DNA from: Escherichia phage Cyrano
Length of the DNA: 64,000 nt
Direction: 5' to 3' (one strand)
Sequence record: OV696614
The notes beneath the pieces were generated by a model that worked only from the letters and a program-made list of their open reading frames with translations, ran no database searches and was not told the origin of the DNA. The translations under genes were made by a program, and so were the position numbers. Below, piece after piece: positions 22,511-34,715 of the stretch (the stretch's first letter is position 1; each line of letters starts with the position of its first letter).

Positions 22511-25500
22511 ATGTGGTACAGGGAAGGTACTATCACATTTACACAGGGTAGCAATACTCTGGTTGGGGCAGGGACAGCCTGGAACGTAACAGCTAATGGT
22601 GTGTTGCCGGGGATGATCGTCATTGGCCCCGACAATAAGCTGTATGAGATCAAGCGCGTAACAAGCGATACGAATATTGTTCTCTCAGAACCTTATACCG
22701 GCGAAACTCAGTCTGAAGTTCCGTGCCGAATCATTACGACCTATGAAGGCGACTTAACACAGTTTAGCGCGCGCTTTACTGCGCTAATGTCGCGTATGTC
22801 GGCTGATTCCAAGTCCATGCGCAGTTGGTTGACTGCGCTGGATGAGGTGACAATCGAGCGTGAAGACGGTACAGAAGTGACCGTTAAGCCGCTAATGCAG
22901 ATCGTCAACGAGCACAACGAAAACGTTGAGTGGTATAAAAATAACACTGACGCGATTGATGCTGCTGGCGACAAAGCTCGTGAGGCGGCGGCCAGTGCTG
23001 CCGCAGCAGCAAAAAGCGCCAATGCCGCTGGAGAAAAAGCATCTCAAGCGTCTCAAAGTGCATCCGCTGCGGCATCCTCACAAAGTGCCGCAAGTGCGAG
23101 TGCAACTGCTGCGAAAAAATCTGAAACGAATGCTGCAGCGTCACAAAAATCTGCAGCCACTTCTGCATCCACCGCGACCACGAAGGCGTCAGAAGCTGCC
23201 ACCTCAGCCCGGGATGCGGCGGCCTCAAAAGAGGCAGCGAAATCATCAGAAACGAGCGCAGCCTCGAGCGCCAGTAATGCCGCTTCCTCGGCAACGGCGG
23301 CAGGAAATTCCGCGAAGGCGGCAAAAACGTCCGAGACGAACGCCAGGTCTTCTGAAACGGCAGCGGGACAGAGCGCCTCGGCTGCGGCAGGCTCAAAAAC
23401 AGCGGCTGCGTCGTCTGCCAGTGCCGCGTCAACAAGTGCCGGGCAGGCCTCAGCCAGTGCCACCGCCGCCGGAAAATCGGCAGAAAGTGCCGCATCGTCT
23501 GCTTCAACAGCCACAACGAAGGCTGGCGAAGCCACTGAACAGGCCAGCGCAGCAGCGAGGTCTGCTTCCGCAGCGAAGACATCCGAAACGAACGCGAAAG
23601 CGTCGGAAACCCGTGCAGAATCCTCAAAAACGGCAGCCGCATCGTCCGCCAGTTCGGCAGCGTCATCGGCATCATCTGCGTCTGCTTCAAAAGATGAGGC
23701 GACCAGACAGGCGTCAGCAGCGAAGGGCAGCGCCACGACGGCATCCACGAAAGCAACAGAGGCGGCAGGCAGTGCGACGGCAGCATCTCAGAGCAAAACT
23801 GCTGCTGAATCCGCTGCGACCCGTGCGGAAGCTGCTGCTGATCGTGCTGAAGAGATTGCCGGTGCAGTTGCGATGGAAGACGCAAGCCTTACAACTAAAG
23901 GTGTTGTGAAACTTAGCAGTGCTGTCGACAGCACCAGTGAATCGCTGGCCGCAACGCCAAAAGCAGTTAAAGTAGTCAATGACAATGCGAACAGCAGGGT
24001 GCCATCTAACCGAAAAATTAACGGGAAAGCACTGACTGCGGATATCACATTAACGCCGAAAGATATTGGTACTTTAAATTCAATAACGATGTCTTTCTCT
24101 GGCGGGGCCGGGTGGTTCAAACTGGCTACTGTTACAATGCCACAAGCGAGTTCCATCGTTTACATCGCATTGATTGGTGGCGCTGGTTACAACGTCGGCT
24201 CCCCACATCAGGCAGGCATTTCAGAACTGGTTCTACGAGCAGGCAATGGAAACCCCAAAGGGATTACAGGTGCTTTGTGGAAGCGTACAGCTGTCGGATT
24301 AACGAATTTCGCCTGGATCAACACATCCGGCGATACATATGATATTTACGTTGAGATTGGCAATTATGCGACTCGTGTAAATATCCATTGGGATTGTACT
24401 GCAAATGCGACAGTTTCTATTTATACATCGCCAACATATTCAGCTAGTAAGCCTTCCAGCGTTACCGATGGTGTTGTTTATACGATGTATAGCACACATC
24501 AGAAACCGACGCCGTTAGATATTGGAGCACTGCCAACAACCGGAGGAACAGTTTCAGGTCCGTTGTCTGTTACTGGTGGGATCACCGGAACATTAAATGG
24601 TAATGCAAGTACAGCAACGAAATTGCAGACGGCAAGATCTATCGGTGGAGTTGGTTTCGACGGTTCTGCAAATATCAACCTTCCAGGTGTAAATACTACG
24701 GGTAATCAGAACACCACTGGTAATGCTGCAACTGCTACAAAACTTCAGACGGCAAGAACTATCGGCGGCGTGAGCTTTGATGGTACTGCGAATATTAATT
24801 TGCCAGGTGTTAATACGACTGGTAATCAGAATACAACGGGCAACGCGGCTACTGCTACGAAGTTGCAGACTGCGCGTACTATCAATGGGGTGTCGTTTGA
24901 CGGCTCGGCAAATATTTCCTTGTCGCCAACAAATATAGGTTGCCCGGCATCTCCTACTGGTTGGTTAACTACAGGAAGTAATGGCGGAGCAATAACAACA
25001 GCACAGTTAGTGACGTTATTGCAAAATAATGGTGCTTTTAATGCAAAGGCATGGATAGCGCGTTGTGCTTGGGCGTATGCAAATAGTGCATCCATACCAG
25101 ACAGCGAAACAGGATGCGGCATTATTCCACTGGCTGGCGCAGTTATTGAGGTATTTAATAACGGTAGTAGCTCAAACAATTATACGATCCGCATAACAAC
25201 GGCCACAACGACAAGTGTTTCCGGTGCTCTCACTAATGCGGAGTTTATCTATGTATTTAACGGGACGAGCTATTCACCAGGATGGCGCAGAGCGTATAAC
25301 ACTAAAAACAAGCCTACTGCGGCTGATGTCGGAGCTTTACCACTATCTGGAGGAGCGTTAACTGGCGGATTAACGTCTTCTGGTGAGATCGTTTCAAAAT
25401 ATGCAAATGGTTTCCGCATTGCTTACGGTAGCTTTGGGTTCTTTATCCGTAATGATGGATCGAACACATATTTCATGCTAACAGCATCAGGAAACACATT

Positions 25501-26536
25501 AGGTTCATGGAACGGTTTGCGACCTATTACAATTAATAATACCAGCGGTGCTGTGTCCATTGGTAATGGACTAAATGTTACTGGTGGCGTAAATGGTAGT
25601 TTGAACGGTAATGCTTCAACAGCTACGAAGTTGCAAACTGCTAGAAAAATAAGCGGCGTGTCTTTTGATGGTTCTGCTGATATAACACTAACAGCTGCAA
25701 ATGTATCTGCTTTTGCTCGACGCGCTACTGGAACTTATGCCGATACTAGTGGTGCGGTCCCGTGGAATGCCGAATCAGGTGCGTATAATGTTACACGCTC
25801 CGGGGATTCTTATATCGTTGCAAATTTTTATATAGGCGTAGGTAGTTGTCGGACTCTCCAAATCCGAGCGCATTATAAAAATGGTGGATTGTATTACCGT
25901 TCATCACGTGATGGCTATGGGTTCGAAGAGGACTGGACTCAGATATATACTAAAAAAGACAGCATCCCAGGTGTGAATGCAGATGGGAACCAGAACACTA
26001 CTGGTAATGCTGCCACCGCCACAAAATTGCAGACAGCAAGGAAAATTGCTGGTGTGGCGTTTGATGGCTCTGCCGATATTACTTTGACTGCGGCTAACCT
26101 TAATGCTTATACGAAAACAGAGGTAACGAATCTTCTAAGTTCCTATGTGAAGAGCAGTGCTCTTCCAAGCATGACTGTGCGAACTTCCTCCATTTCAGGT
26201 GGGGATATGGGCATGAGTTTGTCCACATTCATTAGCCACCTTAAATCAAATGGGGCGTTTAGCAAAAGATATTGGATTGGCTTTGGCGATGCTATGGGAT
26301 TCAATGCTGGCAGTATCAACAATATAACGGGATTTGGTGCTGTAGAATTAGCAGAATCTATAATCGAAGTTTTTAATCTACCTAACGGTGATTATACAAT
26401 TCGTTTAACAACGTCACATAAAGCTGATTACGGTGGAGTGACAAACGCAATCCTCGTTTATCACTACCGCAGTAATAGAAGTCCGTCAGGTCAATGGCTG
26501 AAATTTGCCGGTACTGTTGGGGCAACAAGTAACTGA
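22511..26536 (+). CDS. stf: side tail fibre protein, lambda Stf-like N-terminal half plus phage fibre repeats
   Basis: 1341 aa; long Ala/Ser/Thr-rich segment nearly matching my memory of lambda Stf (KSETNAAASQ.SAATSASTA.TKASEAATSARDA..SKEAAKSSET.., LAATPKAVKVV); five copies of GNAATATKLQTAR.I.GV.FDG..NI.L repeat. Confidence 0.85.
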   Translation: MWYREGTITFTQGSNTLVGAGTAWNVTANGVLPGMIVIGPDNKLYEIKRVTSDTNIVLSEPYTGETQSEVPCRIITTYEGDLTQFSARFTALMSRMSADSKSMRSWLTALDEVTIEREDGTEVTVKPLMQIVNEHNENVEWYKNNTDAIDAAGDKAREAAASAAAAAKSANAAGEKASQASQSASAAASSQSAASASATAAKKSETNAAASQKSAATSASTATTKASEAATSARDAAASKEAAKSSETSAASSASNAASSATAAGNSAKAAKTSETNARSSETAAGQSASAAAGSKTAAASSASAASTSAGQASASATAAGKSAESAASSASTATTKAGEATEQASAAARSASAAKTSETNAKASETRAESSKTAAASSASSAASSASSASASKDEATRQASAAKGSATTASTKATEAAGSATAASQSKTAAESAATRAEAAADRAEEIAGAVAMEDASLTTKGVVKLSSAVDSTSESLAATPKAVKVVNDNANSRVPSNRKINGKALTADITLTPKDIGTLNSITMSFSGGAGWFKLATVTMPQASSIVYIALIGGAGYNVGSPHQAGISELVLRAGNGNPKGITGALWKRTAVGLTNFAWINTSGDTYDIYVEIGNYATRVNIHWDCTANATVSIYTSPTYSASKPSSVTDGVVYTMYSTHQKPTPLDIGALPTTGGTVSGPLSVTGGITGTLNGNASTATKLQTARSIGGVGFDGSANINLPGVNTTGNQNTTGNAATATKLQTARTIGGVSFDGTANINLPGVNTTGNQNTTGNAATATKLQTARTINGVSFDGSANISLSPTNIGCPASPTGWLTTGSNGGAITTAQLVTLLQNNGAFNAKAWIARCAWAYANSASIPDSETGCGIIPLAGAVIEVFNNGSSSNNYTIRITTATTTSVSGALTNAEFIYVFNGTSYSPGWRRAYNTKNKPTAADVGALPLSGGALTGGLTSSGEIVSKYANGFRIAYGSFGFFIRNDGSNTYFMLTASGNTLGSWNGLRPITINNTSGAVSIGNGLNVTGGVNGSLNGNASTATKLQTARKISGVSFDGSADITLTAANVSAFARRATGTYADTSGAVPWNAESGAYNVTRSGDSYIVANFYIGVGSCRTLQIRAHYKNGGLYYRSSRDGYGFEEDWTQIYTKKDSIPGVNADGNQNTTGNAATATKLQTARKIAGVAFDGSADITLTAANLNAYTKTEVTNLLSSYVKSSALPSMTVRTSSISGGDMGMSLSTFISHLKSNGAFSKRYWIGFGDAMGFNAGSINNITGFGAVELAESIIEVFNLPNGDYTIRLTTSHKADYGGVTNAILVYHYRSNRSPSGQWLKFAGTVGATSN

Positions 26537-28021: not shown

Positions 28022-28157
28022 ACCACAAACAGCCAGCGTGTTGTTCTGCGATGGGGCTGAGCCTATCTATATCAGCAATAATGATGTAATGACTGAAGAA
28101 ACCGAACGCCAAATCCTTTTTCACAATACGATGGGAGAGAGGGTTTGTGGTTGGTGA
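27942..28157 (+). CDS. o-spanin (Rz1-like outer membrane lipoprotein), embedded/overlapping
   Basis: signal peptide with lipobox (LLPFIVSCMISGC), starts inside the Rz-like gene in a different frame, classic Rz/Rz1 architecture. Confidence 0.55.
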   Translation: MRRAVKYVRKMLLPFIVSCMISGCVIKPQTASVLFCDGAEPIYISNNDVMTEETERQILFHNTMGERVCGW

Positions 28158-28189
28158 TGTCGAAGTTCCCCTCAAATGAGGGGAACACA

Positions 28190-28711
28190 TTATTCTTCGA
28201 ACAATTTTTCGATAGATTTTGTAGGATAGAACAAAGAACGCTCGTTGTTACCAACCAGCTGGATAAAGCCTAAACTTTTATAAAACGCCTTGGCTTTGTC
28301 ATTTAACGCCTCAACGAAAAGTCCATGAATGCCTACAGCAAGAGATGCATTGTACACAACGCGCATTGCATGTGTTACAAGCATTGAGCCAAATCCTTGA
28401 CCTTGAAGGGACTTGTCCAAAGCCAGCCTACCCAAAGTAACACTTGGAACATTCCGATAAGGAACCTTCTTTTGTTTGCTTCTTGAAGGTAAGGACTCCT
28501 TTTCAAAACAACTACCTGACAAAGTGTAATATCCTAACACTTTTGGCCTTTCTTCTTGAGTGCAAAGCACATAAGCACGAAGAATTTTTCCCTCATGCTG
28601 CCTTTTTAAGTGGTTGGCTAAAAAGGCGTTTAGTGACTCTTCGCCGCAATCAAAACCGTTTAGATCATAATCTTTCTCTCCAGAGAAAATCTCTATCGTT
28701 GTATTGCTCAC
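28190..28711 (-). CDS. GNAT-family acetyltransferase toxin (TacT/AtaT/KacT-like)
   Basis: 173 aa; GNAT acetyl-CoA binding region (LGRLALDKSLQGQGFGSMLV); GTG start 4 nt after stop of upstream RHH gene. Confidence 0.7.
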   Translation of the reverse strand: MSNTTIEIFSGEKDYDLNGFDCGEESLNAFLANHLKRQHEGKILRAYVLCTQEERPKVLGYYTLSGSCFEKESLPSRSKQKKVPYRNVPSVTLGRLALDKSLQGQGFGSMLVTHAMRVVYNASLAVGIHGLFVEALNDKAKAFYKSLGFIQLVGNNERSLFYPTKSIEKLFEE

Positions 28712-28718
28712 GAGTAAA

Positions 28719-28988
28719 CTACTCCATGCTTTTCAGACGATCAGCAGCTCGTTTCAGCTTGTCGTTCGGTGCCGGAGGATTGCTTATAGCGTCCATAACC
28801 AGATTCCAGGATTCTTCATTCAGAACTAGTCTACGGTGTTGCTCTATAACTTTCACGGCACGTTCAGATGCACTGCTAACCATAAACTGAGTAATGCTCT
28901 GGTTAGACATTGCGGCAGCTTCCTCGATGATGCTTTTATCGTCATCGGTTAATCTCAAATCGATGCGCTGCTTTTTTAGTGCTGACAT
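28719..28988 (-). CDS. RHH antitoxin (DUF1778/TacA-like)
   Basis: 89 aa from ATG 28988 with CAGGAGGAATAC RBS; small protein directly upstream of GNAT gene. Confidence 0.65.
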   Translation of the reverse strand: MSALKKQRIDLRLTDDDKSIIEEAAAMSNQSITQFMVSSASERAVKVIEQHRRLVLNEESWNLVMDAISNPPAPNDKLKRAADRLKSME

Positions 28989-29306
28989 GTATTCCTCCTG
29001 ATGGCCGTGATGTAGGAAGGCCATCAATCTCCTCTGTTCAAACTGAGTTTTCGACTCAAAAATTACTTTAAAAGGCTATAGCCCATTACGTGTGCATTAT
29101 CAAATTGTGTACGGCATATCACCGTACTTGTAATATAGAGGTCATTGTTACTTTTTTCAACAGACAAATACAAGCTATGATTGCCAATTGTTAATCACAA
29201 CCTACCATTTAACCTTTACACCGCAGCCGTAGGCATTTAGGCTATATCACATATAAGAAAACAAGTTGTTTCAGACGATAATTATATACGCAAAGGGAAC
29301 TCTCCA

Positions 29307-29975
29307 ATGACCAAGATCTTTGTGGTTGGCGGCACAAAGGGCGGGCCTGGCAAATCCACCGTTGCCCAGCAAATTGCCGTTTGCCTGAAAGTCAAAAAGA
29401 AGAAGAAGGTTTATATCACTGATATAGATATTCAGCGCACGACAACAAGCTGGTGTGAAGACCGTCGACAGAACGAAGACCTTGAGCTGATTCCTTTTGC
29501 ATACGTTCAGGATGACATCATTAAGCACCTAAAATCGCTTCAGGGTAGAGCTGAGTATGTAGTGGTAGATGCTGGTGGCTTCGACTCCGAAATTCAGCGA
29601 CAAGCGATGCTGATGGCCGACGTTATCATTATCCCGCTTCGTCCTAAGCGTCGTGATTTGAAATCTCTGCGTGACATTGATCCTATTATCGACAATGTTC
29701 GTAATGTAAACGATAAAGTGAAGGTCCGCGCGGTCATGAACCAGTGCCCGGCTTTGCCATCACAAGTGTCTCGCATTCTGGCGGCTAAAGAGATTGTTGA
29801 GACGTTTGGCATCGAGTCTGCGCCAGTCAATCTATATAACCGCAACGTCTATGATGATGCGGAAGAGTCTGGTCGTTCTATCTTTGAAATGACCGGTAGC
29901 GAGCGCGACAAAAAGGCGGAAGCCGAGTTTGAAGAATTTGTAGATTATCTGTTGAGTCTGGAGGAAGAAGAATAA
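29307..29975 (+). CDS. parA: ParA-family partition ATPase (small type Ib)
   Basis: deviant Walker A GGTKGGPGKST near N-terminus, 222 aa. Confidence 0.85.
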   Translation: MTKIFVVGGTKGGPGKSTVAQQIAVCLKVKKKKKVYITDIDIQRTTTSWCEDRRQNEDLELIPFAYVQDDIIKHLKSLQGRAEYVVVDAGGFDSEIQRQAMLMADVIIIPLRPKRRDLKSLRDIDPIIDNVRNVNDKVKVRAVMNQCPALPSQVSRILAAKEIVETFGIESAPVNLYNRNVYDDAEESGRSIFEMTGSERDKKAEAEFEEFVDYLLSLEEEE

Positions 29976-30334
29976 TGTCCATGAAAATGGGGGACCTAGC
30001 AAAGCGCAAAGAGCCTGATGCACCGGCTAAGAACACAACTCCTTTGCGCCAACCAGTCAGACCACAGGGACGCCCGACTCGTGGCAAAGAGAAAATTAAA
30101 AGCCGCACAATGTCACTGGAGGACGAATACTTCGAACTGCTGGAGATGATGAAGTTCATCCCTCGTTTCGAGAAATTCACCCGTTCAGACGTGATTCGCG
30201 CAGCCATTTTCCATCTGGCAGAGAAGTCACCGCAGGAAATCGAGGACATCGTGAAACTTAACGAGGCGATCACAGCTGCCGACGTAACGATGCGTACCGA
30301 TGAAATCAAACGCGAGTTGATGAAGAAAGGTTGA
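29975..30334 (+). CDS. putative centromere-binding partition partner (ParG-like)
   Basis: 119 aa, basic disordered N-terminus, translationally coupled to parA (ATAATG overlap). Confidence 0.45.
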   Translation: MSMKMGDLAKRKEPDAPAKNTTPLRQPVRPQGRPTRGKEKIKSRTMSLEDEYFELLEMMKFIPRFEKFTRSDVIRAAIFHLAEKSPQEIEDIVKLNEAITAADVTMRTDEIKRELMKKG

Positions 30335-30337
30335 TAA

Positions 30338-30363
30338 GAGAAGGCGTGATTAGACGCCTTCTC
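30338..30363 (+). terminator. hairpin after partition operon (terminator or attenuator)
   Basis: GAGAAGGCGT-gattag-ACGCCTTCTC inverted repeat; weak T tract. Confidence 0.3.
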
Positions 30364-30378
30364 TTAAAAGGTATATTT

Positions 30379-31134
30379 ATGCTTTACAAATATGTTGGAA
30401 GTAGCGTCCCGGAAGACACAATAAAGTATTTAAAGTATTACTTAGAAGATGGGAAAATTCGAGCAACTCGTCCGAATGATTTCAACGATCCTGCCGAGTT
30501 TAAAGTTAATTTTGATTATGATGCTGATATAGACGCCATTAAGAAAAGATTTTTTGAGCTTTGGCCTAATCATCACAATGATGAATTTGAACGCTGGTTA
30601 TTGAGTCAAACAGAACATAGTCGCAGTTTTGATAACTATATGATTAGAACAACTTTTCTGCAGTGTCGGGGAGTTATTTGTTTGACAAAAAGACCAGATA
30701 ATTATCTTATGTGGTCGCATTATGCGCATTCTCACTCTGGTTTTTGCATCGGATTTGATGATGGTTTTATAAATGCGTTTGATGATGGTTTTTTTGTTCG
30801 CGGTGAGGTCAAATATTCCTCTGATGTTCCGGTTGTAAATTTTTTTACCGACTCAGATAAAGAGATTGCAGCGGCTCTTTGCCTAAATAAAAGCGATGTC
30901 TGGGAATATGAAGAGGAGGTTAGAATCGTAACCGAGAATTGTGGCGTGAAATTATTTGATAAATCCTTAATTAAGGAAATAACAATAGGTTGTAAGGCTA
31001 GCAGTCAACTTCAAAATTATGTTCATCAACTATTTGATTCAGGTATCGAAATCTACAAAATGAAGTGCCCTCCAGGATCGTATAAGCTGGAAAAAATAAG
31101 ATTAGAGAAAGATACTGATTTTCTTGGATACTAG
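30379..31134 (+). CDS. DUF2971-like protein (function unknown)
   Basis: N-terminal LYKYVG..(28 aa)..FNDPAEF and central NYLMWSHYA.SHSGFCIGFD motifs match my recollection of the DUF2971 family; AT-rich relative to flanks; ATG 30379 chosen. Confidence 0.45.
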   Translation: MLYKYVGSSVPEDTIKYLKYYLEDGKIRATRPNDFNDPAEFKVNFDYDADIDAIKKRFFELWPNHHNDEFERWLLSQTEHSRSFDNYMIRTTFLQCRGVICLTKRPDNYLMWSHYAHSHSGFCIGFDDGFINAFDDGFFVRGEVKYSSDVPVVNFFTDSDKEIAAALCLNKSDVWEYEEEVRIVTENCGVKLFDKSLIKEITIGCKASSQLQNYVHQLFDSGIEIYKMKCPPGSYKLEKIRLEKDTDFLGY

Positions 31135-31157
31135 TATTGGTAGTGTCAACAATTATG

Positions 31158-31218
31158 ACCTGCTTCTGTATATAATAAGTAAATTAGTATTTATATATAT
31201 ACAGAAGCAGGTCTTTTA
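31158..31218 (+). terminator. long perfect inverted repeat / terminator
   Basis: 18 bp arms CCTGCTTCTGTATATATA ... TATATATACAGAAGCAGG, followed by TCTTTTAAA. Confidence 0.5.
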
Positions 31219-31327
31219 AAGACACCCACCAGAACAAGTCCCTTCCGTTTCCACTTCCAAAAACTGCCACCAGTCGCTATCATCCGCTCATTGTGATAAG
31301 TAAGTAACTACCTACCAGGTGAGCCAC

Positions 31328-32068
31328 ATGAGCCAAATCTTTTTCGATACCATCGACAACGACCAGTACGACTTCATGACAGAGTGGAATACCGCTGTTA
31401 TGGACAAGTGGGTTGCTGAAAACATTGGTTTGTCGCGCTGCAAAGACGAGGCTGAACTGTTTGAGACGAAGTGGTTTGATTACCGCGATATGCATCCTCT
31501 CATGGCCACCTGTCTGTTTACGGAGGCATACAAACGTCAGTACTCAAATATCATGCTGACGCACGGTCGTGAACACTTTGAAACAGCTCCGTTCACCACC
31601 GGGTTAAAACGCCTGCCTTATCAGGAGTTGTCGACTGCCAATAAAACGTCGCTATGGAAAGCACGCCAGTTTGCGGATCGCTATTGCTGCTCATACGACT
31701 ACTTTATCTCCACTGTTCTTTCCGCAGCTGCACGACGTCTGTGGGACAAGCTGCCTCGCCCACAGCATTTGTGGCAGCCAGAACTGATTGAGATATTTGA
31801 AGAGAAATTAGCCAGACGCGCAACAACCCGTCTGGATGACTCTGTGGTTAGCTTTAAGCATATGGGAGACATGCAGTTCAACCCGATTCAGGAAAGCTAT
31901 TTTGAGTGGATTCTGGAGCGTTTGCGCACCATCCCTCGCAGTAAGCGCATACGCGCAATTTTCTCCGCTATCTGGCTAATGGAAATCGTTCCAGAGCGCC
32001 TTATTTCCGCCCACTTTCCAGAAGAACTGGAAGAAGCACGGCGGTTTATTGATCCCCTATCTAATTAA
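31328..32068 (+). CDS. hypothetical protein
   Basis: about 246 aa ORF, ATG 31328 preceded by AGGTGA; no recognisable motif. Confidence 0.4.
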   Translation: MSQIFFDTIDNDQYDFMTEWNTAVMDKWVAENIGLSRCKDEAELFETKWFDYRDMHPLMATCLFTEAYKRQYSNIMLTHGREHFETAPFTTGLKRLPYQELSTANKTSLWKARQFADRYCCSYDYFISTVLSAAARRLWDKLPRPQHLWQPELIEIFEEKLARRATTRLDDSVVSFKHMGDMQFNPIQESYFEWILERLRTIPRSKRIRAIFSAIWLMEIVPERLISAHFPEELEEARRFIDPLSN

Positions 32069-32111: not shown

Positions 32112-33452
32112 ATGACCGAACTTTGCCATACAGGACGCGGGCTGTCCGAAGAGTTTGATGAAGATTTCCAGAACAGACTGACGGCATATTTTTGTCGTGA
32201 TCACGAGTTTCTTACTCGTGCGGGAGATCTGGTTGTGCCTAGCCAATTTGCCAATGCGGCCAATGCCATATTGGTTAATATGGTTTCGGGCTATTACCGT
32301 ATGTACAAGAGCGCGCCCTCTTCATCTGCAATTCTGGATATGCTTAAGCGTGCGAAACGCGATAAGACTATCCGTGAGGAACTATTCGCCGATGTTGTTG
32401 CTGCGTTTAAGCGCATTCTTGCAGAAAAATTGTCCGATACCTCGTACATGGTTGACCAGGTATCAACCTTCGCAAAAAGTGTAGCGTTTGATGATGCTCT
32501 GATTAAGGCTGCTGAACTGAAAGAGAAAGGCGACTTTCAGGGGGCGATGGCAATCATGGCCAAGGTTCAGCAGATTGGATCGAACGAAGCGACCGGAATC
32601 TATGACTACTACACCTCCGCAAGTGAGCGATTGAAAGCGCGTGAATATGAGGCTTCAGAGGAGTATGTGCCAAACAGCATTACAACTGGACTCCCTCTGC
32701 TCGATAGGTTGCTGTACCAAAAAGGCTGGGCAAAGCGCGAAATGGTGCTCTTCATGGGGTTCGCTAAATCCGGTAAATCGACCGCAATGGGTGAGTTTTC
32801 CATAAACGCAACGCTTGCTGGCTACAATGTTCTGTATCTCTCGCTGGAGGTTCACACCACCATTTTATCCGACCGTTTTGATGCAAGATTGTCGGAGACA
32901 GAAATGTCCAAGCTGGTGGAACGGCGCGATGAGGTTCATCGTAAGTTGGCAGAGTTGGGAGCCACGAAGGGGATTGGTAGTTTGTGGGTGGTTGAGCGTC
33001 CGTCAGGAAGTATGTCACCGGCAGATCTGGACCGTATGCTTAACAGCATGAAAGCCAACGGCATGGTACCTGACATGGTTGTTGTCGACTACGCAGATTT
33101 GATGCGTGCCAGTTATGACCTTCGTGATGATCGCGCCAACATTCGTAGTATCTACACCGATTTACGTGCTCTTTATGACAAGCATAACGTTGCTGGGATC
33201 ACGGCATCGCAGACAAACCGTGAAGGTGGCGCGTCAGAAGTTGCCACAATGATGCACGCTGCCGACAACATCGAAAAAGTACGTATTGCTGACCTGGTAA
33301 TAACGATCAACAAAACCGAAGAAGAAGAAGCGAAAGGAGAGGCTCGTCTCTACTTTGCTGGTTCACGTAACCAGCAGGGAGGGATCAGCATTCGCGTTAA
33401 ACAAAACCTCGAACAAATGCGCTTCATTGAGCGAATCTTAGACGTTACCTAA
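32112..33452 (+). CDS. dnaB: replicative DNA helicase, DnaB-like
   Basis: 446 aa; C-terminal RecA-fold with Walker A GFAKSGKST and Walker B VVVDYADL. Confidence 0.8.
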   Translation: MTELCHTGRGLSEEFDEDFQNRLTAYFCRDHEFLTRAGDLVVPSQFANAANAILVNMVSGYYRMYKSAPSSSAILDMLKRAKRDKTIREELFADVVAAFKRILAEKLSDTSYMVDQVSTFAKSVAFDDALIKAAELKEKGDFQGAMAIMAKVQQIGSNEATGIYDYYTSASERLKAREYEASEEYVPNSITTGLPLLDRLLYQKGWAKREMVLFMGFAKSGKSTAMGEFSINATLAGYNVLYLSLEVHTTILSDRFDARLSETEMSKLVERRDEVHRKLAELGATKGIGSLWVVERPSGSMSPADLDRMLNSMKANGMVPDMVVVDYADLMRASYDLRDDRANIRSIYTDLRALYDKHNVAGITASQTNREGGASEVATMMHAADNIEKVRIADLVITINKTEEEEAKGEARLYFAGSRNQQGGISIRVKQNLEQMRFIERILDVT

Positions 33453-33461
33453 AAAATAAGC

Positions 33462-34715
33462 GTGGAGAACACCTCCACGCTTGATTCATTGGTGAAACAA
33501 CTTTTCTTTTGCCAAACCACAAAAGAAAAACACATGAGCCTTTATGTTATATCAACATTTAGGTTGGTCACAATATTGCCTGTTAAAAGTGGAATTATCG
33601 TGAGCGAGCTGAAAGAGCTAATTACCGAATTAGATTTTGAACAATGGTTGGATACTGAAGGTATCGTTTATCGACGTGGAGGCGTGAGTACTCGCGGTCG
33701 TGAAGTGAATATCAAGGAGTGTCCGGTATGCGGCAGCTCCAACTGGAAGGTATATTTCAATCTGACCAGTGGCGTCGGTAAATGCTTCGCTGGTGATCAT
33801 CCCGAAGAGATTCAGTTCAATAAGCTGGTCTTCCTCAAGCACTACAGCGGCAAATCACGACGACAGTTCGAGGAATATGTGCAGAACGCCCTTCTTTCCC
33901 AGGGGTGGGCACCAAAGAAAGAAGAGCTAGTGCTTGCAAGCACAGTCGAGTTAGAGGGGCCAGTTGCACTCCCTCGTCATTACGAGCTTCCTATAGATGG
34001 CCGTCTTCCAGACTATCTGGTTGAACGAAACATATCGCCTGAAATGGCAAAATATTTTGACCTACGATACTGCGTCGAAGGCAAGCACGCCTATGTAGAT
34101 CCGTATACAGATCAGGTTAAAGGACAGATATTCGATATGCGAATACTGATACCGGTTTACGATCTGGATGGGGTAATGAAGACATTTCAGGGACGAGACA
34201 TTACCGGTACAGCAGAACGCCGCTACCTCTTTCCTATGCAGCTTCCAGCTTCAGGTAAGTTTCTCTACAACGGCCATAATGCAGTTGGCAAACAGACTGT
34301 AGTTGTCTGTGAGGGGGCGTTCGATGTTATGGGAGTTAAACGAGCTATTTTTGATGAAGAAACATTACGTGATTACGTGGAACCAATAGGAACGTTCGGG
34401 ATGCATCTATCTGGCAACACCACTCAGGATGCAGAAGATCAGTTGGGCGCGTTCCTGACGCTCAAGGCGCGTGGATTACGTAATGTGATCATGATGTGGG
34501 ATAGTGAAAAGCAAGCTATACGCAACACTATGGCCGCAGCCAAGCGACTGACCAGTATTGGTCTTAATGTCAAAGTAGCGTGTTTGGGCGAGGAAGGACT
34601 CGACCCAGGCGATGCAACGCCAGAACAAATTATCAAAGCCTATTATCGGGCAAAACCGTATACCAGACAGTTGGAGTTGCAAAGCAAGGTTTTAGGCATT
34701 AAGGCTCTATCGTAA
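33462..34715 (+). CDS. dnaG: DNA primase (zinc-ribbon + TOPRIM)
   Basis: CPVCGSS..(16)..CFAGDH zinc-binding motif; TOPRIM-like VVVCEGAFDVMG; true start may be ATG 33534, which carries the conserved leader. Confidence 0.75.
   Translation: MENTSTLDSLVKQLFFCQTTKEKHMSLYVISTFRLVTILPVKSGIIVSELKELITELDFEQWLDTEGIVYRRGGVSTRGREVNIKECPVCGSSNWKVYFNLTSGVGKCFAGDHPEEIQFNKLVFLKHYSGKSRRQFEEYVQNALLSQGWAPKKEELVLASTVELEGPVALPRHYELPIDGRLPDYLVERNISPEMAKYFDLRYCVEGKHAYVDPYTDQVKGQIFDMRILIPVYDLDGVMKTFQGRDITGTAERRYLFPMQLPASGKFLYNGHNAVGKQTVVVCEGAFDVMGVKRAIFDEETLRDYVEPIGTFGMHLSGNTTQDAEDQLGAFLTLKARGLRNVIMMWDSEKQAIRNTMAAAKRLTSIGLNVKVACLGEEGLDPGDATPEQIIKAYYRAKPYTRQLELQSKVLGIKALS

What the first reader, a model, noticed from the sequence alone, without database searches (positions are those of the whole stretch)
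30379..32068. AT-rich cargo pair (DUF2971-like protein plus unknown 246 aa protein) between partition and replication operons
The gene at 30379..31134 encodes a protein with LYKY..FNDPAEF and NYLMWSHYA..GFCIGFD motifs that I associate with the uncharacterised DUF2971 family; it is visibly more AT-rich than its neighbours and is bracketed by hairpins (30338-30363 and the 18 bp-arm inverted repeat at 31158-31218), followed by an unassigned 246 aa gene. The composition and bracketing suggest horizontally acquired cargo, a typical location for defence or anti-defence genes in plasmids.
Basis: partly seen in the sequence, partly recalled or inferred. Interest (0 to 1): 0.45.

Follow-up and report, generated by a model that had tools for sequence, protein, structure and literature searches.

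The report
Phage-plasmid defence slot with DUF2971 gene
One AT-rich gene in a swappable slot of an SSU5-type phage-plasmid encodes a DUF2971 protein, a predicted ADP-ribosyltransferase of a family already shown to block phages in Lactococcus; the 246-aa gene after it is ordinary conserved backbone, not cargo.

Summary
The window is an SSU5-like phage-plasmid of E. coli. Gene 1 (30379-31134) is a real DUF2971 protein. It matches Pfam above threshold and PADLOC candidate PDC-S31 over its full length (E 1e-40). It is the most AT-rich stretch of the whole 64 kb (GC 0.356 against 0.466). Both hairpins exist.

The "pair" does not hold. In relatives, homology breaks at the stop codon of the 119-aa ParA partner gene (30334) and resumes at the 18-bp-arm inverted repeat (31157). 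So the cassette is about 30336-31150 and holds one gene. The inverted repeat and the 246-aa gene (31328-32068, GC 0.486) are conserved backbone. They are identical in elements that carry different cargo.

In relatives the same slot holds PD-T4-3 (GIY-YIG), PD-T7-5, a KAP NTPase (PDC-S49), other DUF2971 alleles only 41-51% identical, or unknown genes. This makes it a defence hotspot.

Verdict: a new member of a known kind, sitting in a hotspot I did not find described in the literature I searched. Interest is moderate to low.

The parts
29307..29975 (+). ParA-type partition ATPase; conserved left flank of the slot
   Evidence: Pfam AAA_31, MipZ, CbiA and ParA. 98% nt identity to E. coli relatives. 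Promoter-like sites lie at 29154-29208.
29975..30334 (+). 119-aa ParA partner gene (phrog_5111); possibly a ribbon-helix-helix centromere binder. Its stop codon is the left edge of the variable slot.
   Evidence: phrog_5111, E 4.5e-80. No Pfam match. Only a weak, sub-threshold hit to an RHH family. Homology with relatives ends at 30332-30336.
30336..31150 (+). Exchangeable cassette: the hairpin plus one gene
   Evidence: Absent from or replaced in L001-L012, while the flanks stay 80-98% nt identical. The identical cassette occurs in 21 of 5426 complete E. coli genomes, always on 105-115 kb plasmids. Slot GC (parB-like stop to ATG 31328, 993 nt) is 0.363 against 0.48 in the flanks.
30335..30366 (+). 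GC-rich hairpin directly after the partner-gene stop codon. It has no U-tract and is probably an attenuator or RNA-end structure between parAB and the cargo.
   Evidence: 13-bp perfect arms, -21.9 kcal/mol, z -6.5. Not scored as a terminator. Most cassette types carry a different hairpin at this same position.
30379..31134 (+). DUF2971 / PDC-S31 protein (251 aa): predicted ADP-ribosyltransferase-like single-gene anti-phage candidate
31157..31213 (+). Conserved backbone palindrome (18-bp arms, AT-rich centre) followed by TTTT. It is terminator-like and forms the right edge of the slot.
   Evidence: Present in all 13 loci from six genera. Arm variants form U-G wobbles on the + strand only, and one position shows T-A, T-G and C-G.
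31328..32068 (+). 246-aa backbone gene (phrog_2500), first gene of the dnaB-primase module; function unknown. It is not cargo.
32112..33452 (+). DnaB-like replicative helicase; conserved right context
   Evidence: Pfam DnaB_C, E 4e-13. 93-100% aa identity to relatives.
33462..34715 (+). Primase (DnaG_N / Toprim); conserved right context
   Evidence: Pfam DNAG_N and Toprim_2. Annotated as DNA primase in relatives.

Best explanation
The window is an SSU5-type phage-plasmid. It has a recombination-exchanged accessory slot between the end of the parA/119-aa partition operon and a conserved palindrome that precedes the replication module (246-aa gene, dnaB, primase).

In this element the slot holds one low-GC gene for a DUF2971 / PADLOC PDC-S31 protein. 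I propose it is a single-gene, abortive-infection-like anti-phage effector of the Aristaios type. It would be an NAD+-dependent ADP-ribosyltransferase-like enzyme whose conserved Tyr and YExE motifs form the active site. On infection by a competing phage it would modify a nucleic acid or the transcription apparatus and stop phage gene expression, protecting the lysogen and the resident phage-plasmid.

The gene is probably transcribed by read-through from the parAB promoter across a U-tract-less hairpin. Transcription probably ends at the conserved palindrome.

Shown here: family membership, cassette boundaries, slot variability, the defence identity of the alternative occupants, and the composition anomaly. 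Inferred: the defence phenotype of this allele, ART catalysis, the target, the trigger and the transcription pattern.

The 246-aa gene is not part of the cassette. It is a lineage-specific backbone gene, possibly an accessory replication or helicase-loading factor. That suggestion rests on position only.
For: Identity of the element:
- 97-98% nt identity to Escherichia phages CMS-2020a and PhiR41_1, and 80-86% to Salmonella phage SSU5.

Family membership:
- Pfam DUF2971 above the gathering score.
- PADLOC PDC-S31, E 1e-40, full length. All 60 aligned homologues also match PDC-S31.

Cassette and hotspot:
- Homology breaks at 30332-30336 and resumes at 31149-31157.
- The same slot elsewhere holds PD-T4-3 (E 2e-23), a KAP NTPase PDC-S49 (E 3e-22), DUF2971 plus PD-T7-5 (E 1e-139), and several unknown genes or gene pairs.
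- Against L007, ParA, the partner protein, the 246-aa protein and DnaB are 100% identical, while DUF2971 is 41% identical.
- 713 PLSDB plasmids share the backbone, with many different slot lengths.

Composition:
- This is the lowest-GC stretch of the window.

Context of homologues:
- The same slot in another SSU5-like contig.
- A P2-like prophage, between the tail-fibre assembly gene and the sheath gene.
- An integrase island carrying CbtA/CbeA and an anti-restriction gene.
- Next to the CI-type repressor of a lambdoid prophage.

Fold and motifs:
- AF2 pLDDT 95.2.
- Invariant Y115 and E178, with E180 at >=90%. This matches the Tyr and ExE motifs described for DUF2971 in PMC12522546.

Literature:
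- The DUF2971 protein Aristaios is a single-gene Abi-like system that blocks phage transcription and protein production (PMC11381338, PMC13064643, PMC12967558).
- DefenseFinder found PD-T4-3 and PD-T7-5 in SSU5-group elements (bioRxiv 10.1101/2025.09.12.675607).
Against: - No experiment exists for this allele or, as far as I could find, for any PDC-S31 member. A search for 'PDC-S31' returned 0 papers.
- I could not superpose residues, so the active-site assignment rests on conservation plus a published description.
- I did not compare the protein directly with Aristaios, which is 316 aa from a Gram-positive host. The two share only the Pfam family.
- A lone toxic ART without an antitoxin needs some control mechanism, and none is visible.
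- No promoter or canonical terminator was detected inside the cassette, so expression is inferred.
- One of 21 genomes has the gene interrupted by IS1, and one relative has a frameshifted KAP NTPase in the slot. Slot contents are therefore dispensable.
Confidence: 0.6

Rival explanations
1. The DUF2971 protein works for the phage-plasmid's own lytic or establishment programme. It would be a host-takeover or anti-defence ADP-ribosyltransferase, comparable to the T4 Alt/ModA/ModB enzymes, rather than a defence against other phages.
For: - The element is a functional-looking phage, with tail fibre, lysis and replication genes.
- The gene lies beside the replication module.
- ART-fold resemblance.
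- That phages use ARTs for takeover is my own background knowledge.
Against: - The alternative occupants of the same slot match PD-T4-3 and PD-T7-5, models of systems named as phage defences.
- Homologues occur in non-phage chromosomal islands and next to a prophage repressor, a lysogeny-expressed position.
- The one tested family member, Aristaios, is plasmid-borne and defensive.
- The gene is dispensable and absent from many otherwise identical elements.
Confidence: 0.12
2. The gene is a plasmid-addiction or competition toxin that stabilises the phage-plasmid or excludes related plasmids. Any anti-phage effect would be incidental.
For: - It sits in the plasmid-maintenance region next to parAB.
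- A TacA/TacT-type toxin-antitoxin pair lies just upstream, at 28190-29027.
- A Klebsiella SSU5-like plasmid reduced both phage plating and plasmid uptake (PMC8969562).
Against: - There is no antitoxin partner. The cassette has room for one gene only, holds no other ORF of 50 aa or more, and gives no Rfam match above threshold.
- There is no macrodomain neighbour of the kind seen in DarTG.
- Allele diversity of 41-58% identity on identical backbones fits an arms race with external partners better than self-stabilisation.
Confidence: 0.08
3. [not shown]
For: - Foldseek finds no significant PDB match.
- No HMMER link to any ART family.
- Other strongly conserved motifs (N36-D37-P38, W112-S113-H114, K171, W175, R182) are not classical ART motifs.
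Against: - Two independent published analyses reached the same fold assignment (PMC12522546 and PMC11381338).
- A conserved Tyr and YExE are present.
Confidence: 0.2

Closest known systems
Aristaios (Lactococcus plasmid pUCCL641_199; Grafakou et al. 2024, PMC11381338)
   Same: - A single-gene system carried on a mobile replicon.
- The Pfam DUF2971 domain covers the core of the protein.
   Different: - 316 aa against 251 aa, and a Gram-positive host.
- Aristaios has a measured Abi-like phenotype (a block of phage transcription and protein production). This allele has none.
PADLOC phage defence candidate PDC-S31
   Same: Full-length match to four of the PDC-S31 profiles, best E 1e-40. All 60 homologues in alignment A1 match as well.
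   Different: PDC-S31 is only a computational candidate. I found no paper that names or tests it. This allele is at most 58% identical to any other cluster in the 5.8-billion-protein collection.
DarT of DarTG toxin-antitoxin systems (ssDNA thymidine ADP-ribosyltransferase)
   Different: - No sequence-level match.
- No DarG macrodomain antitoxin next to it.
- Published analysis of DUF2971 describes large helical inserts between core strands (PMC12522546); I could not map them on my model.
- The target is unknown.
[quoted passage not shown] 2022, PMC9122126; PMC13586616)
   Same: - Conserved core genes flank a short locus.
- Unrelated anti-phage genes are swapped in that locus among near-identical elements.
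- The cargo is low in GC.
- A DUF2971 homologue sits in a P2-like prophage accessory locus.
   Different: - A different element type (SSU5 phage-plasmid) and a different position (between the partition and replication modules).
- The slot is bounded by a conserved palindrome.
- I did not find this slot described in the papers searched.

Membership tests
Pfam DUF2971 (PF11185) | Score above the curated gathering threshold | tested here: met
   42.2 bits against a cut-off of 22, residues 111-183, profile positions 1-89 of 89. 60 of 60 homologues match.
PADLOC PDC-S31 | Full-length match to the PDC-S31 profile as a stand-alone gene | tested here: met
   PDLC04990, E 9.9e-41, protein residues 1-239 against profile positions 8-255 of 259. 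No partner gene in the cassette.
PADLOC PDC-S31 | Demonstrated anti-phage activity | not testable with these tools
   This is a candidate class only. Zero papers mention PDC-S31.
ADP-ribosyltransferase superfamily (H-Y-E-like clade, as proposed for DUF2971) | ART core fold | tested here: inconclusive
   [not shown]
ADP-ribosyltransferase superfamily (H-Y-E-like clade, as proposed for DUF2971) | Conserved motif II Tyr and motif III ExE (PMC12522546) | tested here: met
   Y115 and E178 are invariant and E180 is at >=90% across 60 sequences of 23-59% identity. The placement in the active site was not verified by superposition.
ADP-ribosyltransferase superfamily (H-Y-E-like clade, as proposed for DUF2971) | NAD+-dependent ADP-ribosyl transfer | not testable with these tools
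   A biochemical assay is needed.
DarTG toxin-antitoxin | Sequence membership in the DarT family | tested here: not met
   No DarT hit in Pfam or PADLOC at E <= 10 for any of 60 homologues, and none in PDB sequences.
DarTG toxin-antitoxin | Adjacent DarG macrodomain antitoxin | tested here: not met
   The neighbours are the 119-aa ParA partner and the 246-aa backbone gene. Neither has a macrodomain, and there is no other ORF.
Aristaios | Single gene with a DUF2971 domain on a mobile replicon | tested here: met
   compared with Table 1 of PMC11381338.
Aristaios | Direct homology to pUCCL641_199 and an Abi-like phenotype | not tested
   The Aristaios sequence was not retrievable with the tools. 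The phenotype needs experiments.
Mobile-element defence hotspot | Conserved flanks with unrelated, swapped contents among close relatives | tested here: met
   At least eight slot configurations occur across 13 loci with sharp common boundaries. Flank proteins are 100% identical while the cargo is 41% identical.
Mobile-element defence hotspot | Alternative occupants are recognised defence genes | tested here: met
   PD-T4-3 E 1.6e-23, PD-T7-5 E 1.4e-139 and PDC-S49 E 2.8e-22. Four other configurations have no PADLOC match above noise.

The most novel reading that the evidence does not exclude
The conserved palindrome at 31157-31213, together with the partner-gene stop codon, might be more than a terminator. 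It could be a dedicated cassette-exchange site, for example a hairpin- or cruciform-forming recombination site. SSU5-type phage-plasmids would then have an integron-like platform for defence genes. The sharp common boundaries, and the fact that the palindrome's centre is inverted in this window and in L009 relative to L001-type loci, do not exclude this.
Probability: 0.07. Interest if true: 0.65.

Novelty: new member of a known kind. Interest (0 to 1): 0.35.

Why it matters
SSU5-type phage-plasmids are common in E. coli, Shigella, Salmonella Typhi and Klebsiella. 713 PLSDB plasmids share this backbone.

Knowing that one fixed slot between the partition and replication modules carries interchangeable anti-phage genes has three uses:
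- It gives a simple way to mine new defence genes. Several occupants have no annotation at all: a 357-aa gene, a 250+140-aa pair and a 214+136-aa membrane pair.
- It helps predict phage-therapy resistance carried by these plasmids.
- It supplies an enterobacterial DUF2971 allele for testing whether this large family is truly an ADP-ribosylating defence. A published survey counts the family in 5981 species (PMC12522546).

The finding itself extends known ideas rather than overturning them.

Tried and rejected
- **Cargo pair.** Rejected. The second gene has backbone composition and is conserved independently of the cargo.
- **Right inverted repeat as part of the cassette.** Rejected. It is present in all 13 loci whatever the cargo.
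- **Sequence-level link to a solved structure or an ART family.** None found, either for the DUF2971 profile or for the 246-aa protein.
- **Foldseek on the DUF2971 model.** Nothing significant. The afdb50 library was not available.
- **Hidden partner gene or RNA.** There are no other ORFs of 50 aa or more in the cassette. Rfam gives only sub-threshold miRNA-like hits on the palindrome, which I take as chance hits to a hairpin shape.
- **Canonical promoter or terminator scan.** No site inside the cassette, and neither hairpin is scored as a terminator.
- **Site-specific exchange at the palindrome.** Considered unlikely. In L007 the imported tract runs through the palindrome and about 60 nt beyond it, with SSU5-type sequence. 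That fits homologous recombination between related phage-plasmids.
- **Retrieving the Aristaios sequence for a direct comparison.** Failed. The paper gives only a BioProject number.
- **Literature search for a description of this hotspot.** Found only DefenseFinder tallies for SSU5 elements, with no locus-level description.
Full report
**1. What the window is**

The region around the finding matches Escherichia phages CMS-2020a and PhiR41_1 at 97-98% nt identity. It matches Salmonella phage SSU5 at 80-86%. It also matches 713 PLSDB plasmids, mostly about 105-115 kb and non-mobilizable, from Klebsiella, Escherichia, Enterobacter, Salmonella, Citrobacter and Cronobacter. The window is therefore an SSU5-type phage-plasmid.

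Upstream of the finding lie a tail-fibre gene, lysis-region genes, a TacA/TacT-like pair, a ParA ATPase gene (29307-29975) and a 119-aa partner gene (29975-30334). Downstream lie a DnaB-like helicase gene (32112-33452) and a primase gene (33462-34715).

**2. Checking the observation**

Gene 1.
- It runs from 30379 to 31134 (251 aa) and carries the quoted motifs.
- It matches Pfam DUF2971 at 42.2 bits against a cut-off of 22.
- Its GC is 0.356 and its GC3 is 0.298, against a window mean of 0.466 (sd 0.034).
- Every 756-bp window with GC <= 0.38 in the 64 kb falls on this gene.

The two hairpins.
- Left hairpin: 30335-30366, 13-bp arms, -21.9 kcal/mol, z -6.5.
- Right inverted repeat: 31157-31213, 18-bp perfect arms, -34.7 kcal/mol, z -10.2.
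- Both fold far better than shuffled sequence.

Gene 2.
- It has no Pfam, NCBIfam, PADLOC or PDB sequence match.
- Its GC is 0.486 and its GC3 is 0.551, the same as its neighbours.

It does not hold for an "AT-rich pair".

**3. Where the cargo begins and ends**

I aligned the window with 12 related loci (L001-L012). Homology stops at 30332-30336, which is the stop codon of the 119-aa gene. It resumes at 31149-31157, which is the left arm of the inverted repeat. The exchangeable unit is therefore about 30336-31150. It contains the left hairpin and a single gene. It holds no other ORF of 50 aa or more and no Rfam match above threshold.

The right inverted repeat is backbone.
- It is present with the same arms (CCTGCTTCTGTATATA) in all 13 loci from six genera, whatever the cargo.
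- It is followed by TTTT or TTTTT.
- Variant arm positions form U-G wobbles when read as + strand RNA. They would be C-A mismatches on the other strand.
- One position shows T-A, T-G and C-G.
- This fits a + strand terminator-like hairpin that insulates the replication module. The simple terminator scan did not score it.

Most cassette types carry a different GC hairpin immediately after the 119-aa gene stop codon. The window's hairpin is visibly related to the one in the Enterobacter and Klebsiella DUF2971 cassettes.

**4. The slot is a defence hotspot**

The same interval holds the following in relatives.

| Locus or element | Slot contents | Match |
|---|---|---|
| PhiR41_1 and CMS-2020a SCU-107 | 255-aa GIY-YIG protein | PADLOC PD-T4-3, E 1.6e-23 |
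| CMS-2020a SCU-175 | 567-aa KAP-family NTPase | PDC-S49, E 2.8e-22 |
| L006 | The same KAP NTPase, frameshifted | - |
| L007 | A different DUF2971 allele plus PD-T7-5 | PD-T7-5, E 1.4e-139 |
| L005 | 357-aa unknown gene on the minus strand | no PADLOC or Pfam match |
| L008 | 250-aa + 140-aa unknown pair | only borderline PADLOC hits (E about 1e-3) on the 250-aa protein |
| L009 | 214-aa + 136-aa pair, the first gene probably membrane-embedded | no PADLOC match |
| SSU5 | The L009-type pair upstream of a DUF2971 gene | - |
| L010 | 259-aa + 136-aa pair | no match |
| Enterobacter (L011), Klebsiella (L012) | DUF2971 alone | PDC-S31 (L012) |

Against L007, the ParA, partner, 246-aa and DnaB proteins are all 100% identical, while the DUF2971 proteins are 41% identical. 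Against SSU5, Enterobacter and Klebsiella, the flank proteins are 83-93% identical and DUF2971 is 51%. This is allele replacement by recombination, not gradual divergence.

In L007 the imported tract continues through the palindrome and about 60 nt beyond it, with SSU5-type sequence. That points to homologous recombination between related phage-plasmids.

The exact cassette of the window occurs at >=99.3% identity in 21 of 5426 complete E. coli genomes. It is always on 105-115 kb plasmids and never on a chromosome. In one genome it is interrupted by IS1. It also occurs in about 25 PLSDB plasmids. In the 5.8-billion-protein collection the next closest cluster is only 58% identical.

**5. Context of more distant homologues**

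- A 55%-identical homologue sits in the same slot of another SSU5-like contig.
- A 36%-identical E. coli homologue lies in P2-like prophages, between the tail-fibre assembly gene and the sheath gene. From my own knowledge this is the position of the P2 Z/fun accessory gene.
- A Serratia homologue lies in an integrase island with CbtA/CbeA, RadC and an anti-restriction gene.
- A Shewanella homologue lies next to the CI-type repressor of a lambdoid prophage.
- One chromosomal locus has two DUF2971 paralogues side by side.

None of these is a housekeeping context.

**6. What the protein probably does**

PADLOC classifies it as PDC-S31, a single-gene phage defence candidate (E 1e-40, full length). 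All 60 aligned homologues match PDC-S31 as well.

Foldseek finds nothing significant, although Tpt1 and DarT recur among its weak hits. HMMER finds no ART family. The fold link is therefore remote.

Two published analyses agree with the assignment.
- A survey of ART families places DUF2971 in a modified H-Y-E clade near DarT, AbiGi and Tox-ART-HYD1. It describes a strictly conserved Tyr and an ExE motif (PMC12522546).
- In my alignment Y115 and E178 are invariant and E180 is at >=90%.
- The Lactococcus plasmid protein Aristaios (316 aa, DUF2971) is an experimentally shown single-gene Abi-like system. It blocks phage transcription and protein production, and it was likewise assigned an ART fold (PMC11381338, PMC13064643, PMC12967558).

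My best-supported mechanism is this. The gene is expressed in the lysogen, probably by read-through from the parAB promoter (promoter-like sites at 29154-29208) across the U-tract-less hairpin. The protein uses NAD+ to ADP-ribosylate a nucleic acid or the transcription machinery once a competing phage infects, and this aborts the infection. The trigger, the target and the means by which self-toxicity is avoided without an antitoxin are all unknown.

**7. The 246-aa gene**

- It belongs to phrog_2500.
- Its family has only 33 clusters in the large protein collection. They are named from Escherichia, Enterobacter, Klebsiella, Raoultella, Morganella and Xenorhabdus, and the longest contigs are about 100-112 kb.
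- It precedes dnaB in all 13 loci.
- Its model is all-alpha (pLDDT 76) with no informative structural match.
- It is a lineage-specific backbone gene. A role in helicase loading or replication control is a guess from position only.

**8. Comparison with what is known**

The gene is a member of Pfam DUF2971 and of PADLOC PDC-S31. It works most like Aristaios. It is not a DarTG system, because it has neither a DarT sequence match nor a DarG neighbour.

The slot behaves like the P2/P4 defence hotspots (PMC9122126, PMC13586616), but in a different element and at a different position. A recent survey recorded PD-T4-3 and PD-T7-5 in SSU5-group elements without locating them. I found no description of this locus as a hotspot. 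That literature search covers open-access papers only.

**9. Verdict**

It is wrong for gene 2 and for the right hairpin.

This is a new member of a known kind, in a hotspot that is useful but conceptually familiar. I score interest at 0.35. My confidence in family membership, cassette boundaries and slot variability is about 0.9. It is about 0.65 for a defence role and about 0.5 for ART chemistry.

Noticed in passing
window 28155-29199 (genes 28190-28711 and 28719-29027, minus strand): There is a second variable slot, just upstream of the parA promoter. The window and the two CMS-2020a records carry a TacA-like antitoxin (Pfam TacA1, E 9e-26) and a GNAT TacT-like toxin here. PhiR41_1, SSU5 and a Klebsiella plasmid have two unrelated hypothetical genes of about 400 and 780 bp instead. 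Homology breaks at 28154 and resumes at 29200.
   Followed up: partly
window 31175-31195, compared with L001, L007, L009 and L010-L012: The AT-rich centre of the conserved palindrome is inverted in the window and in L009 relative to the SSU5-type loci. A 16-nt stretch, AAGTAACTTAGTATTT, matches only as the reverse complement. This suggests flipping between the arms. The centre is itself partly palindromic, so the call is not clean for every locus.
   Followed up: partly
window 30738-30785: Inside the DUF2971 gene there is a 24-nt tandem direct repeat (71% identity) that encodes GFCIGFDD / GFINAFDD. It lies immediately after the conserved strand, in the one lower-confidence patch of the model (pLDDT 87). 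It looks like an allele-specific internal duplication.
   Followed up: no
L005 1296-2369 (-); L008 1287-2454 (+); L009 1234-2278 (+); L010 1310-2492 (+): Four other slot occupants have no Pfam match and no PADLOC match above noise: a 357-aa protein, a 250+140-aa pair, a 214+136-aa probable membrane pair also present in SSU5 (genes 035/036), and a 259+136-aa pair. Given where they sit, they are candidates for unrecognised defence systems.
   Followed up: partly
L006 1287-2982; hit H136 (NZ_JBQRBK010000004.1): There is decay of slot contents. The KAP NTPase is split into three ORFs in pSCU-306-2, and the window's DUF2971 allele is interrupted by IS1A in one of 21 complete genomes.
   Followed up: no
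L022 3186-5762: A chromosomal locus next to proBA carries two DUF2971 paralogues (269 aa and 253 aa), separated by a 205-aa unknown gene.
   Followed up: no
window 22511-26536: A 1341-aa tail-fibre-like ORF has a long Ala/Ser/Thr-rich low-complexity region (about residues 150-480) and repeated 'NQNTTGNAATATKLQTAR' units.
   Followed up: no
window 31240-31300: A stretch between the palindrome and the 246-aa gene, TCCCTTCCGTTTCCACTTCCAAAA...CAGTCGCTAT, is nearly invariant across six genera. It scored as no sigma-70 promoter. It may be a regulatory or origin-related site of the replication module.
   Followed up: no
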